Below are positions 53,219 to 57,993 of a stretch of 64,000 nt of DNA, in pieces. How positions within the stretch are numbered: the first letter of the stretch is position 1; every line of letters begins with the position of its first letter. Made by a program: the position numbers and the translations under genes. The stretch lies in IMG/VR virus record IMGVR_UViG_3300043823_000114, positions 1-64,000 of that record; one strand, written 5' to 3'. Origin of the DNA: a virus. Under the pieces are notes generated by a model. It had not been told where the DNA came from. It did not search any database and saw nothing but the letters and a program-made list of their open reading frames with translations.

Positions 53219-54235
53219 ATGAGTAATCTATTTAAAAAAGCCGCCCTGATAACGGACATACATTTTGGCCTAAAGTCAAACAGTTCTCTACACAATGAGG
53301 ATTGTTTGGCTTTTGTCAAATGGGCCACTGCCAAAGCACGAGAAGAAGGTTGCGAAACTTGTTTCTTTTTGGGTGATTGGCACAATAACCGTGCTAGTAT
53401 CAACATCTTAACACTACAGTATAGTTTACAAGCACTAGAGCATTTGAATGATAATTTTTCAAATGTTTATTTTATTCCTGGCAATCACGATCTCTATTAT
53501 CGGGATAAGCGTGATGTGCAAAGTGTCGAATGGGCAAAGCATCTCTCTAATATACAGATTTGCAACGATTGGTTTGACAGCGGCGATGTTGTTATTGCTC
53601 CTTGGCTATGTGGTGATGATCATAAACATCTACGCAAGTTAAAGGGCAAGTATCTATTTGGGCATCTTGAACTTCCAGGTTACTTGATGAACGCAATGGT
53701 AGCGATGCCAGAGCATGGGGAATTCAGAACCGATGACTTGAATCATTTCGAGCATTGTTTCACTGGACATTTTCACAAGAGACAGACTAGAAAGAATGTT
53801 ACTTACATTGGTAACTGTTTCCCACACAACTACGCAGATGCAGGGGATGATGACAGAGGATTATCTATATTAGAATGGGGCAAAGATCCAGAATACCATG
53901 CTTGGCCCGATCAACCCCGGTATCGTGTATTTCAGTTAAGCGATGTTCTAAAGAATACAGAATCTATGCTTCTGCCCAATATGCATGTCAGAGTAAATCT
54001 TGACATAGATATCAGCTATGAAGAAGCCGCATTTATCAAAGAAACATTCATTGATACATATAAGCTCCGTGAGATTACCTTAATTCCAGCTAAAGTCACC
54101 GATTTAACTGACTATGAGTTGCAGGGTAATATAGAATTTGAGAGTGTTGATCAGATTGTTACTGGTCAACTCACAAATATCGAAAGCGACAAGTTTAACA
54201 AAACTCTACTACTAGACATCTACAGAAATCTTTAA
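53219..54235 (+). CDS. Recombination nuclease subunit, T4 gp47 / Mre11-SbcD-like
   Basis: DIHFG, LGDW, GNHD, GHLE, GHFH phosphoesterase motifs. Confidence 0.9.
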   Translation: MSNLFKKAALITDIHFGLKSNSSLHNEDCLAFVKWATAKAREEGCETCFFLGDWHNNRASINILTLQYSLQALEHLNDNFSNVYFIPGNHDLYYRDKRDVQSVEWAKHLSNIQICNDWFDSGDVVIAPWLCGDDHKHLRKLKGKYLFGHLELPGYLMNAMVAMPEHGEFRTDDLNHFEHCFTGHFHKRQTRKNVTYIGNCFPHNYADAGDDDRGLSILEWGKDPEYHAWPDQPRYRVFQLSDVLKNTESMLLPNMHVRVNLDIDISYEEAAFIKETFIDTYKLREITLIPAKVTDLTDYELQGNIEFESVDQIVTGQLTNIESDKFNKTLLLDIYRNL

Positions 54236-56007
54236 TGACATTTAAAATACGAGACCTCGCAGTTAAAAACTTTATGAGTGTGGGTAATGCCACACAAGCA
54301 ATCAACTTTGATCGTCGTGACCTAACACTTGTTCTGGGTGAGAACTTAGACTTGGGTGGGGACGATAGTGGTGCAAGAAATGGTACAGGTAAGACTACTA
54401 TCATCAATGCACTGAGTTATGCGTTATACGGTAATGCTCTAACAAACATCAAGAAAGACAATCTTATCAACAAGACCAATGGTAAGAATATGATTGTGAC
54501 TATTGATTTTGAGTGCAATGGTATTGACTATCGCATCGAGCGTGGTCGTAAACCTGGCATTATGAAGTTCTTTGTCTCTGGTACAGAGCGAGAAATTACA
54601 GACGAAGCGCAAGGTGATAGCAGAGAAACACAAGCAGAAATAGAGCGTATGTTGGGCATGAGTCACGAAATGTTTAAACACATCGTTGCTCTAAACACAT
54701 ACACAGAACCATTTTTAAGTTTAAAAGCTAACGATCAACGACAGATGATCGAACAGTTATTGGGTATTACTTTGCTCAGTGAAAAAGCAGATAAGCTAAA
54801 AGAACAGATTAAAGAAACCAAAGACTTGATTACTAAAGAAGAATTTAGAATCAAGGCTGTGGGTGATGCAAACAAACGAATACAGGATCAAATCGATGCT
54901 TTACTTAGACGCCAGAATTTATGGACCACTAAGATACATGACGATGTTACAGCGTTGCAGTCTGCTTATGATCAACTTGCTAAACTTGATATCGAGTCCG
55001 AACTCAGGGCACATCAGAGTCTGGCAATATTCAATGCTAAGTCAAAGCGCATCAACGAACTCAACAACTGGATTAGGCGTTGTGAACTTGATGAACAGCG
55101 TGAGCAGAAAAATATTGACAAACTCAAGAAGGATATTGAAAGTCTAGAGAATCATACTTGCCACAGTTGTGGGCAAGCATTTCACGATGACAAGCAAGAA
55201 AAGCTATTAGAAGAAAAACGCACTGCACTACAGGAAGCCGCATTACAAGCATTGTCAACAAACACTCAGTGGATGGAACACACTGATGCCCTTAAAGAAC
55301 TGGGTGAGTTGGGTACAGTTCCAAAAGTATATTACGATAGTGAAAGTGATGCGTTTGAACATCGAAGTAGTATGGGTGCATTGTTGGCTCAAATGAGTGC
55401 TAAACAAGCAGAACAAGATCCATATACTGATCAAATTGCAGAGATGAGAGAACAGGCTCTAGAAGAAATCAGTTTTGATACAATGAACGCACTGGATGAC
55501 TTAAAGAATCACCAAGAGTTCTTGCATAAGTTATTGACTAACAAAGATAGCTTTATCCGTAAACGAATCATTGATCAAAACTTGAGCTACTTAAATGGTC
55601 GTTTAGGTCAGTATCTTGATCGCATTGGATTACCGCACACAGTTAAGTTTAACAATGACTTGACTGTAAGTATCACTGAACTAGGTAGAGATTTAGACTT
55701 TGACAACTTGAGTAGGGGCGAGCGTAATCGTTTGATTCTTAGCTTGAGTTGGGCATTCCGTGATGTATGGGAATCATTATATCAACCCATCAACTTGTTG
55801 TTTATTGATGAGCTTGTTGACAGTGGTATGGATAGTTCGGGCGTTGAAAATGCTCTTGCTATTCTCAAGAAGATGAGCAGAGATCACAATAAGAGTATTT
55901 GGCTAGTCAGTCACAAAGACGAACTAGCAGGACGGGTAAATAACACCTTAAAAGTTGTTAAGGAAAACGGCTACACAAGTTATAATACAGATGTAGAAAT
56001 AGTTTAA
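54235..56007 (+). CDS. Recombination ATPase, T4 gp46 / Rad50-SbcC-like
   Basis: KNFMSVG, NGTGKTT, CHSC zinc hook, LSRGE, LLFIDE, SHK. Confidence 0.92.
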   Translation: MTFKIRDLAVKNFMSVGNATQAINFDRRDLTLVLGENLDLGGDDSGARNGTGKTTIINALSYALYGNALTNIKKDNLINKTNGKNMIVTIDFECNGIDYRIERGRKPGIMKFFVSGTEREITDEAQGDSRETQAEIERMLGMSHEMFKHIVALNTYTEPFLSLKANDQRQMIEQLLGITLLSEKADKLKEQIKETKDLITKEEFRIKAVGDANKRIQDQIDALLRRQNLWTTKIHDDVTALQSAYDQLAKLDIESELRAHQSLAIFNAKSKRINELNNWIRRCELDEQREQKNIDKLKKDIESLENHTCHSCGQAFHDDKQEKLLEEKRTALQEAALQALSTNTQWMEHTDALKELGELGTVPKVYYDSESDAFEHRSSMGALLAQMSAKQAEQDPYTDQIAEMREQALEEISFDTMNALDDLKNHQEFLHKLLTNKDSFIRKRIIDQNLSYLNGRLGQYLDRIGLPHTVKFNNDLTVSITELGRDLDFDNLSRGERNRLILSLSWAFRDVWESLYQPINLLFIDELVDSGMDSSGVENALAILKKMSRDHNKSIWLVSHKDELAGRVNNTLKVVKENGYTSYNTDVEIV

Positions 56008-56048
56008 TATATTTTTAATCAGGGCACATTTAGGCATAACTATAGTTG

Positions 56049-56489
56049 ATGACATGGATATTTCAAGGAAACCCTGTAGAAGTTTTACCCGATGACTGCG
56101 TGGGCTTCGTATATCTCATCACCAATTGTATATCAGGGCGCAAATACATAGGCAAAAAACTCTCAAAATTTTCTAAAACAACATATAAAACAGTCAAACT
56201 CAAAAACGGCAATAAGAAACGCAAGAAAATTAAATCAAAGATAGATAGCGACTGGCTCACATATTATGGCTCAAATCTCGAACTCAGTAAAGATGTAATA
56301 GCATTGGGTGCTGAAAATTTTACAAGGGAAATACTATACCTTTGTAAAAGTAAAGCAGAATGTAGTTATATTGAGGCACGAGAACAATTCACAAACAAAG
56401 TTTTAGAAAGCTCAGACTGGTACAATGGACAGATATCAGTCAGAGTACATGGCTCCCACATTCTCAATAAAATTCAGTTAAACGGTTAA
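56049..56489 (+). CDS. Small GIY-YIG endonuclease (catalytic domain only)
   Basis: GFVYLITN...RKYIGKK, YYGS, F.REIL, YIE, WYN. Confidence 0.85.
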   Translation: MTWIFQGNPVEVLPDDCVGFVYLITNCISGRKYIGKKLSKFSKTTYKTVKLKNGNKKRKKIKSKIDSDWLTYYGSNLELSKDVIALGAENFTREILYLCKSKAECSYIEAREQFTNKVLESSDWYNGQISVRVHGSHILNKIQLNG

Positions 56490-56926
56490 GGCTCACACAG
56501 GCCAATTTCTTGTGTATATGATAAGAGGACCCAGGGTCGCTCGGACATAAATCTCTGCCGTTAAGAGTGCTCAACCACTACCCATTTGGATGAAGACAGC
56601 TAATGCCGCTGTTTGGTTGCTTGAATAGGAATAATTATGGCTAAAAAGACGACACAGCGATGTGTCACGGTTATTATGTAAGTTAGCGTTTATATAATAA
56701 CTCGCCGTTGAAAAAGACGGGGATGGAGGTACCGGTCAACCGCCTCTGCTAAACACCCCAACGCTAAGTGATGTGCTACTCGGATGAAGGCAACTTCAAA
56801 CTTTTTGCCCGGGAAACCGGGCAAAGTGTGACGATTAATCTGGATGAATAGCCCATCGCTCCGCGAGAATACCGATGATAAATGTTGTTGAGCGATAGCG
56901 AAAACAACAGATGTGCTTTGCACATC
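56490..56926 (+). ncRNA. Candidate large structured RNA
   Basis: Longest non-coding gap in the window; about ten stems; GNRA-capped hairpins at 56651-56666 (GCGA), 56785-56798 (GCAA) and 56804-56825 (GAAA); 8-nt loop complement 56683-56690/56760-56767. Confidence 0.65.
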
Positions 56927-57145
56927 TCAAAAGAATGGAAGCCCAGACTTCTTAGTTGTTTCTAAATGACCCTTGACGATATCTGAAATAATAGTTCTTT
57001 CTTCAAGACTTAGTATCATTGCTTCGTCATAGGTGATACTTCCCCGCATATACCAACACAGTGATAAGATTTCATGTTTGAGGGCTTTTGCTGATTCCTC
57101 AATCTTATTAATCTCCTCTAAGATTTCGGAGTCAGACATCCGCAA
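56927..57145 (-). CDS. gp51-like / tail assembly chaperone C-terminal part
   Basis: LCWYMRGSITYDEAM.LS.EER; lies in the -1 frame of the upstream gene. Confidence 0.65.
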   Translation of the reverse strand: MRMSDSEILEEINKIEESAKALKHEILSLCWYMRGSITYDEAMILSLEERTIISDIVKGHLETTKKSGLPFF

Positions 57146-57150
57146 AAGCC

Positions 57151-57993
57151 TTATCCGAAAAAACTGCTCTGATCAAATGTGAGATTAGTTTTGAACTCTT
57201 TCTGGCATTCTTCATTTGCACAGGTCAATGTCAGTGGTGGAATTTTATAGAAATTCGTTAGTTCTTCCATAGAGTCTTTGACACTAGAGTATACAGCACG
57301 ACTACAGCTTTCTAGAAACTCTGCAATCATTTCTCTATCTTTTACTTCAATACCATCTTCGGTAGTAACGCTATAAATCCCATCAATAACTAGATTTAGA
57401 TTCAACTCACGGATCTTGTTAAAACTAAAATTGAAGTTTGCCAGTTTCTGCTCTTCGGTTAGTTCTTCATTTTTAATAATGTTTTGAATCAGCTTCTCTT
57501 GTTCAAAGTTAATCATATTGGCATTGTTCATATTCTTATACATTTGTGGTCTGAACTTAAAAGTTAGTCCGTCAAAGTTGTATGATTTAGAATAATCTGC
57601 TTTACCAACACTGTCTAGTACAGCATTTAAGTCTACGCTGTATTCGTCGGACTGATTGCAATGTGGGCAAGTACTATTGAAATCCATCGCTTTACCATAA
57701 CTTGCCAATCTCATTGCAATGAATATTGGGTCTAGGTCCACTGCTGGGATTTCCCATGGATCTTTGATTGCTGGACAGCAACTCTTAATCACATCTGCAA
57801 TAGCTTGCCCACTGAGTAATGCGTCTGGAGTTTTTAGTGATAGTTCATCTCGGACTGTCATTGGGTACACTGGAATAGTACCGTTTGCAGCCAGTTCTAA
57901 TCCGTTTTCGCTGTAAAAGCGCCCTTTACTGGGTAAGCTGAGATAAAGTGCAGGCTGTCTGAAATGTTTTGCCAATGGATTAGCGGTAACCAT
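57151..57993 (-). CDS. Baseplate hub assembly protein, gp26-like
   Basis: LPSKG..Y, YPMT..DE, D.D.IFIA.R.AS.G, CPHC, C..EEC, ends SFF. Confidence 0.75.
   Translation of the reverse strand: MVTANPLAKHFRQPALYLSLPSKGRFYSENGLELAANGTIPVYPMTVRDELSLKTPDALLSGQAIADVIKSCCPAIKDPWEIPAVDLDPIFIAMRLASYGKAMDFNSTCPHCNQSDEYSVDLNAVLDSVGKADYSKSYNFDGLTFKFRPQMYKNMNNANMINFEQEKLIQNIIKNEELTEEQKLANFNFSFNKIRELNLNLVIDGIYSVTTEDGIEVKDREMIAEFLESCSRAVYSSVKDSMEELTNFYKIPPLTLTCANEECQKEFKTNLTFDQSSFFG

What the first reader, a model, noticed from the sequence alone, without database searches (positions are those of the whole stretch)
56049..56926. Minimal GIY-YIG nuclease followed directly by a ~435-nt densely structured RNA: candidate ribonucleoprotein system
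Seen: in a genome with almost no intergenic space, the stretch after the nuclease stop is packed with stems. These are ACACAGG/CTTGTGT (~56495-56515), CAACCA/TGGTTG enclosing GACAGC/GCTGTT (56572-56619), GACACA-GCGA-TGTGTC, a 13-bp stem at 56670-56701, CCGTT/GACGG, GGAGG/CCTCT, TGAAG-GCAA-CTTCA, TTTGCCCGG-GAAA-CCGGGCAAA and terminal hairpins at 56883-56926. Three GNRA loops and G-U pairs favour the + strand, co-oriented with the nuclease. The nuclease has no separate DNA-binding domain but has a very basic insert (KTVKLKNGNKKRKKIKSK). Knowledge: HEARO/omega-type RNAs partner small nucleases, but T4 EndoII is a stand-alone small GIY-YIG. Inference: an undescribed nuclease-RNA complex, ribozyme or replication/recombination RNA placed after gp47-gp46.
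Basis: partly seen in the sequence, partly recalled or inferred. Interest (0 to 1): 0.85.

Follow-up and report, generated by a model that had tools for sequence, protein, structure and literature searches.

The report
Full-length Polynucleobacter-1 twin-box phage RNA
The gene-free 440 bases behind a small nuclease gene of this uncultured T4-like phage encode a real, knotted non-coding RNA whose first third is an already catalogued orphan motif. The nuclease is a habitual neighbour rather than its partner, and the RNA's job is still unknown.

Summary
Window 56490-56927 (+) is a single-copy, about 440-nt structured RNA gene. On 71 homologues, 92% of cells pair and 70 of 91 pairs show compensatory changes. 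Two pseudoknots covary, and G·U outnumbers A·C 516 to 136, which fixes the + strand.

It is not undescribed. Positions 56490-56622 match Rfam RF01718 (Polynucleobacter-1, 86 bits against a cut-off of 37), an orphan motif from 2010. The remaining 300 nt are an uncatalogued but conserved extension. They carry two identical 7-nt boxes (56782-88 and 56842-48) that are the same in 71 of 71 RNAs across nine variants.

The nuclease-RNA complex reading is not supported:
- Full-length homologues sit in Burkholderiales genomic islands, between a DUF6641 gene and a catalytic-domain-only tyrosine recombinase. Those genomes have no SegE-type GIY-YIG.
- Nuclease homologues are widespread in T4-like phages without the RNA.
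- Accessory genes are inserted between nuclease and RNA in 22 loci.
- Nucleases that are 96-100% identical sit beside different RNA classes.
- Two loci carry a PD-(D/E)XK nuclease in the nuclease slot instead.

Best reading: an autonomous trans-acting RNA of mobile elements with an unknown bivalent reader. This scan has met the family on many other genomes. Interest is moderate.

The parts
56049..56489 (+). Small stand-alone GIY-YIG nuclease gene (146-147 aa; SegE-type domain only). It neighbours the RNA and is not shown to be part of it.
   Evidence: PF19835, E 8e-32, residues 4-130. Full-length match to phrog_447. Single copy in the record.
56490..56622 (+). 5' domain of the RNA, which is the Rfam Polynucleobacter-1 motif (helices P1-P5)
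   Evidence: RF01718, 86 bits against a gathering score of 37, model positions 1-141 of 141. Helices 1-7 are 88-100% paired with compensatory changes, apart from one isolated single-pair helix at 73%.
56651..56666 (+). P6 hairpin with a GCGA (GNRA) loop
   Evidence: 6 of 6 pairs show changes on both sides (helix 8).
56669..56702 (+). P7, a 14-bp hairpin. Its loop (56683-88) forms pseudoknot PK1 with 56762-67.
   Evidence: Helix 9: 13 of 14 pairs compensatory, 93.9% paired. Helix 10 (PK1): 6 of 6 pairs compensatory, 94.2% paired.
56707..56759 (+). Core: pseudoknot PK2 (56707-11 with 56736-40), P8 (56719-22 / 56756-59), and P9 (56726-29 / 56743-46), which closes the nearly invariant loop UACCGGNCAACCG
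   Evidence: Helices 11-13. The fifth PK2 pair is U-A in 61 sequences, A-U in 5 and G-C in 1. The 17-nt pattern retrieved 118 viral loci.
56782..56788 (+). Twin box 1 (GGAUGAA)
   Evidence: Identical to box 2 in 71 of 71 RNAs, across nine variants.
56803..56826 (+). P10 hairpin with a GAAA loop, lying between the two boxes
   Evidence: Helix 14, 94% paired.
56842..56848 (+). Twin box 2 (GGAUGAA)
   Evidence: Mutual information with box 1 is 0.94-1.18 bit at the variable positions. No complementary partner was found inside the RNA.
56884..56927 (+). 3' end module: P12 (with an inner GAGCG-AUA-GCGAA hairpin) and P13
   Evidence: Helices 15-17 all show compensatory changes. The same module ends the bacterial homologues. 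P13 also scores as terminator-like for the minus strand.
56927..57145 (-). Convergent 72-aa ORF that bounds the RNA gene, followed by the baseplate-hub gene at 57151-57993
   Evidence: ORF list. PF12322. phrog_150, baseplate hub.

Best explanation
Window 56490-56927 (+) is a stand-alone, single-copy gene for a compact, doubly pseudoknotted non-coding RNA of about 440 nt. It is the full-length form of the orphan Rfam family Polynucleobacter-1.

Shown:
- It folds as RNA on the + strand.
- It has a swappable 5' domain and a conserved 3' core and end module.
- It displays two identical 7-nt boxes on duplicated arms.
- It is shared by freshwater T4-like (jumbo) phages and by genomic islands of Burkholderiales.

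Inferred:
- It is made by read-through of the gp47-gp46-nuclease transcription unit.
- Its 3' end is defined and protected by the P12/P13 hairpins.
- It acts in trans as a folded scaffold, and its twin boxes are read twice by one bivalent or dimeric partner. That partner is not the neighbouring GIY-YIG nuclease.
- It serves a function common to mobile elements, such as DNA transactions or phage-host-island conflict.

The GIY-YIG gene is a widespread T4-like small nuclease. It is probably a structure-specific DNA endonuclease working alongside gp46/gp47, and the RNA gene merely lies next to it.
For: - RNA and strand.
- Known family for the 5' third.
- One copy per genome, including two complete 345-kb phage genomes.
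- Same synteny in about 150 contigs, with variable inserts on both sides of the RNA and 22 loci with an accessory gene between nuclease and RNA.
- Modular 5' domain (types A, B and C) on a shared 3' half.
- Full-length homologues in bacteria, with the same end module.
- Sporadic in bacteria (13 of 121 genomes of one genus, 1-2 copies, near tRNA-Phe), so island-borne.
- Bacterial genomes with the RNA lack a SegE-type GIY-YIG (0 of 5).
- Phage genomes with the RNA lack the recombinase and DUF6641.
- Nucleases 96-100% identical sit beside different boxes and RNA classes. RNA type changes 12 times and the box 47 times on the nuclease tree.
- Twin boxes are identical in 71 of 71 RNAs. They have no internal complement and no enrichment in the flanks.
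- The nuclease family is widespread without the RNA.
- The nuclease slot is filled by a PD-(D/E)XK nuclease in L101 and L161.
Against: - There are no expression data.
- The RNA starts at the first base after the nuclease stop codon, with no room for a promoter of its own. It is therefore at least physically part of the nuclease mRNA here.
- In every context the RNA has a small DNA-cutting or DNA-joining enzyme close by (GIY-YIG, PD-(D/E)XK, or tyrosine recombinase). This could be more than coincidence.
- The conserved core could still bind such enzymes, even though the variable parts do not track them.
Confidence: 0.6

Rival explanations
1. The RNA forms a ribonucleoprotein with the adjacent small DNA enzyme. 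It supplies the nucleic-acid recognition that these single-domain enzymes lack. The enzymes are GIY-YIG or PD-(D/E)XK in phages and a catalytic-domain-only tyrosine recombinase in islands. The twin boxes would read two half-sites.
For: - A small DNA enzyme without a separate DNA-binding domain lies next to the RNA in nearly all contexts.
- The two identical boxes suit a two-fold symmetric target or a dimeric enzyme.
Against: - The three enzyme families are unrelated.
- The GIY-YIG family is common without the RNA.
- Genes are inserted between enzyme and RNA.
- Identical nucleases sit beside different RNA classes and boxes.
- The RNA's own box sequence is not enriched in the surrounding DNA.
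- There is no similarity to HEARO/omega RNAs.
Confidence: 0.1
2. The RNA is an origin or primer RNA, or another replication-recombination RNA. Its transcript stays on or returns to the DNA (an R-loop) next to the recombination genes gp46/gp47 and starts DNA synthesis.
For: - It sits at the end of the gp47-gp46 unit, at a convergent junction.
- There is one copy per genome.
- Mobile islands could also need a replication start.
Against: - GNRA loops, two covarying pseudoknots and 92% paired helices point to a free, compactly folded RNA rather than an RNA-DNA hybrid.
- No AT-rich unwinding tract was noticed when reading the region.
- The 5' domain can be swapped between unrelated types.
Confidence: 0.1
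3. The element acts in cis. It is a long structured 3' UTR that stabilises or terminates the gp46-nuclease transcript and serves as a bidirectional terminator against the converging baseplate operon.
For: - It starts at the nuclease stop codon.
- P13 is terminator-like on the minus strand.
- It sits between convergent genes.
Against: - 440 nt with pseudoknots and twin boxes is far more than a terminator needs.
- The module keeps its end hairpins when 1-3 kb of other genes separate it from the converging operon or from the nuclease.
- In bacteria it lies upstream of, or apart from, genes in other orientations.
Confidence: 0.08
4. The phage copy is a decoy or mimic of the island RNA. The island module (DUF6641, RNA, mini-recombinase) acts against or exploits the phage, and the phage carries the RNA alone to titrate its protein partners.
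For: - Phages carry only the RNA and none of the island proteins.
- The boxes and 5' domains turn over fast.
- The RNA-bearing bacterial genomes include freshwater Burkholderiales such as Polynucleobacter and Limnohabitans (record titles). Whether these are the phages' hosts was not tested.
Against: - The island proteins gave no specific match to known defence families; only the island's AAA ATPase gave weak generic matches.
- The RNA is fixed in synteny across a very large phage group, which suits a core phage function better than an arms-race accessory.
- There are no host assignments.
Confidence: 0.07

Closest known systems
Polynucleobacter-1 RNA motif (Rfam RF01718; Weinberg et al. 2010, Genome Biol 11:R31, PMC2864571)
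   Same: - Window 56490-56622 matches the whole 141-position model at 86 bits.
- The gene-context remark is the same: downstream of a phage-like gene family.
- The same bacterial carrier genus is involved.
- The function is unknown in both.
   Different: - The Rfam model covers only the first third.
- Here the RNA continues for about 300 nt, with two pseudoknots, twin boxes and a conserved two-hairpin end.
- The 2010 work found no copy in any purified phage. Here the RNA is a syntenic gene of T4-like phage contigs, and it also exists with other 5' domains that RF01718 does not detect.
HEARO / omega RNAs of IscB and TnpB (RNA partners of small nucleases)
   Same: It is a large structured RNA directly abutting a small nuclease gene on a mobile element.
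   Different: - There was no Rfam match.
- The nuclease is a GIY-YIG, not a RuvC/HNH enzyme.
- Nuclease and RNA are separable and do not co-vary.
- No terminal guide segment was seen. I did not test for one directly.
Large orphan RNAs of phages and mobile elements (GOLLD, ROOL). This comparison rests on my own knowledge.
   Same: It is hundreds of nucleotides long, intricately folded, carried by phages or prophages and other mobile DNA, and of unknown function.
   Different: - No sequence or structure match was found in Rfam.
- It is smaller.
- The twin identical boxes are a feature of its own.
Free-standing Seg-type GIY-YIG homing endonucleases of T4 (SegA-G), and T4 EndoII. This concerns the nuclease only.
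   Same: The GIY-YIG catalytic domain is of the SegE type.
   Different: - It has only the catalytic domain (147 aa).
- It is conserved in fixed synteny and across hundreds of T4-like phages (phrog_447, 'T4-like GC 213') rather than sporadic like a homing gene.
- It can be replaced at the same slot by a PD-(D/E)XK nuclease.

Membership tests
Rfam RF01718 Polynucleobacter-1 | Covariance-model score at or above the curated gathering score, over the whole model | tested here: met
   86 bits against 37, model positions 1-141 of 141, E 7e-17.
Rfam RF01718 Polynucleobacter-1 | The model's helices are kept by compensatory changes in relatives | tested here: met
   The main 5'-domain helices (1, 2, 3, 5, 6, 7) are 88-100% paired, each with pairs changed on both sides. 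An isolated single pair (helix 4) is 73% paired.
Rfam RF01718 Polynucleobacter-1 | Context as described by its authors (downstream of the GOS11034 / PSSM2_218-like gene) | tested here: inconclusive
   The upstream gene here has cyanophage homologues. I could not check whether it is GOS11034 or PSSM2_218.
HEARO / omega-RNA nuclease systems | RNA matches the family model | tested here: not met
   No HEARO hit, even at E up to 10.
HEARO / omega-RNA nuclease systems | Obligate pairing of RNA and nuclease gene | tested here: not met
   The RNA occurs without the nuclease. The nuclease occurs without the RNA. Genes are inserted between them.
Group I intron carrying a GIY-YIG homing gene | Matches an intron model and interrupts a host gene | tested here: not met
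   There is no Intron_gpI hit. gp46 ends complete at 56007, and no + strand exon follows 56927.
Free-standing homing endonuclease (Seg type) | Sporadic presence among close relatives, with a DNA-binding domain added to the catalytic domain | tested here: not met
   It is present in nearly all syntenic loci and has only the catalytic domain.
Intrinsic terminator / 3' UTR element | A G+C-rich hairpin followed by a U run on the transcribed strand, and little else conserved | tested here: not met
   There is no terminator-like site on the + strand. P13 qualifies only on the minus strand. 440 nt are conserved with covariation.

The most novel reading that the evidence does not exclude
The RNA is the shared nucleic-acid subunit of a set of minimal DNA-junction enzymes. 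These are GIY-YIG or PD-(D/E)XK nucleases in phages and a catalytic-domain-only tyrosine recombinase in bacterial islands. The twin identical 7-nt boxes would read the two half-sites of a symmetric DNA target, giving an RNA-directed cutting or recombination system of a new kind.
Probability: 0.05. Interest if true: 0.9.

Novelty: new member of a known kind. Interest (0 to 1): 0.5.

Why it matters
A 2010 orphan motif turns out to be the head of a much larger, knotted RNA. That RNA is a fixed gene of a very abundant group of uncultured freshwater T4-like and jumbo phages, and it is shared with bacterial genomic islands.

Its twin boxes change often but always together.

The result also removes a tempting but unsupported reading, that of an RNA-guided GIY-YIG nuclease. 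It further suggests that the small nuclease after gp46 is a replaceable DNA-structure endonuclease of the recombination module.

Tried and rejected
- **Rfam at permissive thresholds**: only RF01718 is significant. Faint hits to alpha_tmRNA, RsmV, snoU61 and others are chance. ARAGORN found no tRNA or tmRNA.
- **Small ORF** starting AUGGCUAAAAAG at 56638: the AUG and the frame are not conserved in the alignment, so it is not coding.
- **DNA search of isolated phages** with the 1.1-kb region: no match.
- **Group I intron idea:** rejected. gp46 is complete, there is no downstream exon, and bacterial copies have no upstream ORF on the RNA strand.
- **CsrA-type sponge idea** (three GGA sites): rejected. 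The bacterial boxes lack GGA, and the 5'-domain copy of GGAUGAA does not co-vary with the twin boxes (5 of 71).
- **Internal partner of the boxes:** none found.
- **DNA target nearby:** the RNA's own box and its complement are no more frequent in the ±6 kb flanks than other boxes.
- **Defence-system models** on the island proteins: nothing specific.
- **Folding energy** does not separate the strands.
- It was meant to tabulate DUF6641 and the recombinase across all bacterial loci. I dropped that step, so that association rests on ORF positions in 18 loci and on Pfam for representatives.
- **RNAalifold on the raw MAFFT alignment** missed many helices. The structure was assembled by hand from covariation.

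Full report
**Setting.** The window comes from a 90-kb fragment of an uncultured virus, estimated 26% complete. Around the finding, the + strand carries:
- a gp55-like ORF;
- gp47 (53219-54235, metallophosphatase);
- gp46 (54235-56007, SMC/AAA);
- a 147-aa ORF (56046-56489).

The minus strand carries a 72-aa ORF (56927-57145) and a baseplate-hub gene (57151-57993). The 437 nt in between hold no + strand ORF of 60 aa or more.

**Is the structure real?** Yes.
- The + strand folds at -136.5 kcal/mol (z -3.3). The minus strand folds almost as well (z -3.1), so energy alone does not decide the strand.
- Homologues decide it. The nuclease protein retrieved more than 571 viral contigs. Of the 80 kept, 58 have a homologue of the 441-nt stretch on the same strand downstream.
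- The nearly invariant 17-mer GGTACCGGNCAACCGCC (56728-44) independently retrieved 118 more loci.
- On 71 non-redundant full-length sequences (alignment A1) I assembled a model of 91 pairs in 17 helices, two of them pseudoknots.
- The counting tool gives 92.3% paired cells, against 76.3% in shuffles and 33-43% when the 3' partners are slid. It also gives 70 pairs with changes on both sides, and a covariation score of 0.447 against 0.165, with 0 of 500 shuffles as high.
- Pseudoknot PK1 joins the loop of the long hairpin (56683-88) to 56762-67. All six of its pairs change on both sides, with loop and partner changing together in three distinct forms.
- Pseudoknot PK2 joins 56707-11 to the CAAC of the conserved 13-nt loop. 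Its last pair is U-A, A-U or G-C.
- G·U cells outnumber A·C cells 516 to 136, so the + strand is the folded one.
CCGTT/GACGG and TGAAG/CTTCA are not conserved.

**It is partly known.**
- Rfam's gathering scan gives one hit in the whole window: RF01718, Polynucleobacter-1 RNA, at 56490-56622 (+), 86 bits against a cut-off of 37, covering the full model.
- The permissive scan adds nothing significant.
- The motif was published in 2010 as an orphan. The authors wrote that it is found in environmental samples and in one Polynucleobacter genome, mostly downstream of a gene family with possible homology to a cyanophage P-SSM2 locus. They also wrote that it was not detected in any purified phage, and that its 3' half is not always detected (PMC2864571 supplement).
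- Their raw alignment already shows flanking sequence that resembles the window's continuation.
- This scan has met the same RNA on many other genomes. I treated those notes as leads and tested what I reuse.

**Anatomy beyond the Rfam motif.** After the 5' domain come:
- an A-rich linker;
- a GNRA hairpin (P6);
- the long hairpin P7;
- the pseudoknotted core (PK1, PK2, P8, P9);
- two similar arms, AAGUGAC...CUC-GGAUGAA and AAGUGUGAC...UCU-GGAUGAA, separated by the GAAA-capped hairpin P10;
- a variable linker;
- a two-hairpin end, P12/P13.

The two 7-nt boxes (56782-88 and 56842-48) are identical to each other in 71 of 71 RNAs, although nine different 7-mers occur. Shuffled partners match 13.7 times on average and at most 26 times. 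Exact twins are found in 81 of 81 type-A RNAs, 54 of 57 RNAs of other types, and 11 of 16 bacterial RNAs; the other five that I read differ at one position. More than a dozen different box sequences occur in all.

The variable box positions share 0.94-1.18 bit of mutual information with their twin. Inside the RNA they share nothing beyond background with any possible pairing partner. The third GGAUGAA, in the 5' domain, does not follow them (5 of 71). The RNA's own box and its complement are not enriched in the ±6 kb of flanking DNA compared with other boxes. So something outside the RNA reads the same word twice, or an unusual like-with-like contact forms. I cannot say which.

**The RNA is modular.**
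- 89 loci have the RF01718-type 5' domain.
- 71 loci keep only the 3' half and carry a different 5' domain. Rfam does not recognise it in the representatives I scanned.
- A third, longer form also exists.

**Is the nuclease its partner?** The evidence says no.

1. The synteny gp55-gp47-gp46-nuclease-RNA-(72-aa ORF)-baseplate holds in almost all loci. However, 0-4 kb of other genes can lie between gp46 and the nuclease, and 0-3 kb between the RNA and the baseplate genes. In 22 loci one or two accessory genes sit exactly between nuclease and RNA. By eye these look SGNH-like, methyltransferase-like, sulfotransferase-like and radical-SAM-like; they were not run against Pfam.
2. The nuclease family (phrog_447, often mislabelled 'NAD synthetase') occurs in 507 isolated phage records. 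Three were examined: Methylophilales phage Melnitz, Acidovorax phage ACP17 and Prochlorococcus phage P-RSM4. All have other neighbours and no large gap after the gene. Two contigs carry nucleases 74-77% identical in another context, followed directly by a membrane-protein gene.
3. On a tree of 126 distinct nuclease sequences, the RNA type changes at least 12 times and the box at least 47 times. Nucleases that are 96-100% identical sit beside different boxes and even different RNA classes (L075 and L076 are 100% identical).
4. In the two syntenic loci that lack the GIY-YIG (L101, L161), its place is taken by a 167-176-aa PD-(D/E)XK nuclease, PF24608.
5. The bacterial evidence, set out next.

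**Bacterial copies.**
- The pattern GGAGAYAGCGAAACCGCCC is the bacterial form of the core hairpin seen in the 2010 alignment. It found 45 genomic stretches, mostly Burkholderiales and relatives such as Polynucleobacter and Limnohabitans.
- In all 19 loci scanned, RF01718 lies about 100-280 nt upstream of the pattern on the same strand.
- The bacterial RNA is co-linear with the phage RNA up to the same UGAGCG-N-GCGAAA hairpin and final hairpin. It is about 560-600 nt long.
- It is single-copy in five genomes. It is present in only 13 of 121 genomes of one genus, at different places, and in 0 of 150 other genomes sampled from the class.
- In one complete genome it lies in a region next to tRNA-Phe. 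That region also holds an integrase-like gene, an AAA ATPase and a patatin-like gene.
- The local context is constant: a divergent 145-aa DUF6641 gene, about 1 kb of RNA region, sometimes one extra ORF on either strand, then a 188-226-aa ORF. In the representative tested, that last ORF is a catalytic-domain-only tyrosine recombinase (PF00589, residues 6-176 of 188).
- None of five RNA-bearing bacterial genomes has a SegE-type GIY-YIG. The same model does find the window's gene.
- Conversely, the window's record and five larger phage records have neither the recombinase nor DUF6641. Two of those records are complete, at 345-347 kb.
- Of the four larger records also scanned with the RNA core pattern, three carry one copy of the RNA and one (63% complete) gave no match.

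**What it most likely is and does.**
- The RNA is an autonomous gene that travels on mobile DNA.
- In this phage it has no room for a promoter of its own, since it begins at the base after the nuclease stop codon. I therefore infer read-through transcription from the gp47-gp46-nuclease unit, and a 3' end set by P12/P13.
- P13 also looks like a terminator for the converging minus-strand genes. It nevertheless stays with the RNA when those genes are kilobases away.
- The compact fold, the GNRA loops and the twin boxes argue for a trans-acting scaffold with a bivalent reader.
- Steps shown: the fold, the strand, the modularity, the distribution, and independence from the nuclease.
- Steps inferred: the transcript ends, trans action, and any role in DNA transactions or phage-island conflict.
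- The nuclease is best read as a small structure-specific endonuclease of the recombination module. It sits after the Mre11/Rad50-like gp47/gp46, and it can be replaced by a PD-(D/E)XK nuclease whose Pfam family name is 'phage putative PDDEXK endonuclease' (with a sub-threshold Hjc hit). The two complete genomes also lack an endonuclease VII homologue. This reading is inference only.

**Rivals.**
- *RNP with the neighbouring small DNA enzyme.* This keeps some appeal, because three unrelated single-domain DNA enzymes neighbour the RNA in three settings. The separability and the lack of co-variation weigh against it.
- *Origin or primer RNA.* Not excluded, but it fits the compact tertiary fold poorly.
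- *Pure cis 3' UTR or terminator.* Too small a role for 440 conserved, knotted nucleotides.
- *Phage decoy of an island RNA.* Compatible with the phages carrying the RNA alone, but it has no direct support.

**Verdict.** The object is a new member, and the full-length form, of a catalogued but unexplained RNA family. The nuclease-RNA system is not supported. The twin boxes and the tie to the bacterial mini-recombinase are the parts that remain truly unexplained.

Noticed in passing
L101:3893-4423 (-) and L161:9422-9925 (-): In two loci with the same synteny, the small GIY-YIG gene after gp46 is replaced by a 167-176-aa PD-(D/E)XK nuclease (PF24608). This is a non-orthologous swap at one slot.
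   Followed up: partly
L236, L253 and 16 other bacterial loci (for example L253:9138-11826): Conserved island module in Burkholderiales: DUF6641 (divergent), the full-length RNA, then a 188-226-aa ORF. In the representative tested this ORF is a tyrosine recombinase with only the catalytic domain. The module is sporadic within a genus and lies near tRNA-Phe.
   Followed up: partly
22 viral loci, for example L007:3307-4274, L078:4427-6260, L091: The junction between nuclease and RNA is a hot spot for insertion of single accessory genes. By eye they look SGNH-like, methyltransferase-like, sulfotransferase-like and radical-SAM-like. None looks like a homing endonuclease.
   Followed up: partly
L048, L053, L056 (type B); L042:1974-2560, L047:4680-5190 (type C): Alternative 5' domains of the same RNA have no Rfam match. 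Type C is longer and uses the box ACAUGAA.
   Followed up: partly
L193:6700-7250: Extra fragments of gp46 (residues 3-93) and gp47 (residues 207-338) lie between the full gp47 and gp46 genes. This suggests a duplication or an inserted element in the recombination module.
   Followed up: no
L202:4366-4591 (Prochlorococcus phage P-RSM4): In this cyanophage the homologous small GIY-YIG gene ('NAD synthetase', T4-like GC 213) is followed within about 150 nt by a tRNA-Arg gene rather than by the large RNA.
   Followed up: no
window 57145-57170 (-): Other readers of this scan flagged a possible -1 frameshift site (T TTT TTC) joining the baseplate-hub-like ORF to the 72-aa ORF. I did not examine it.
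   Followed up: no
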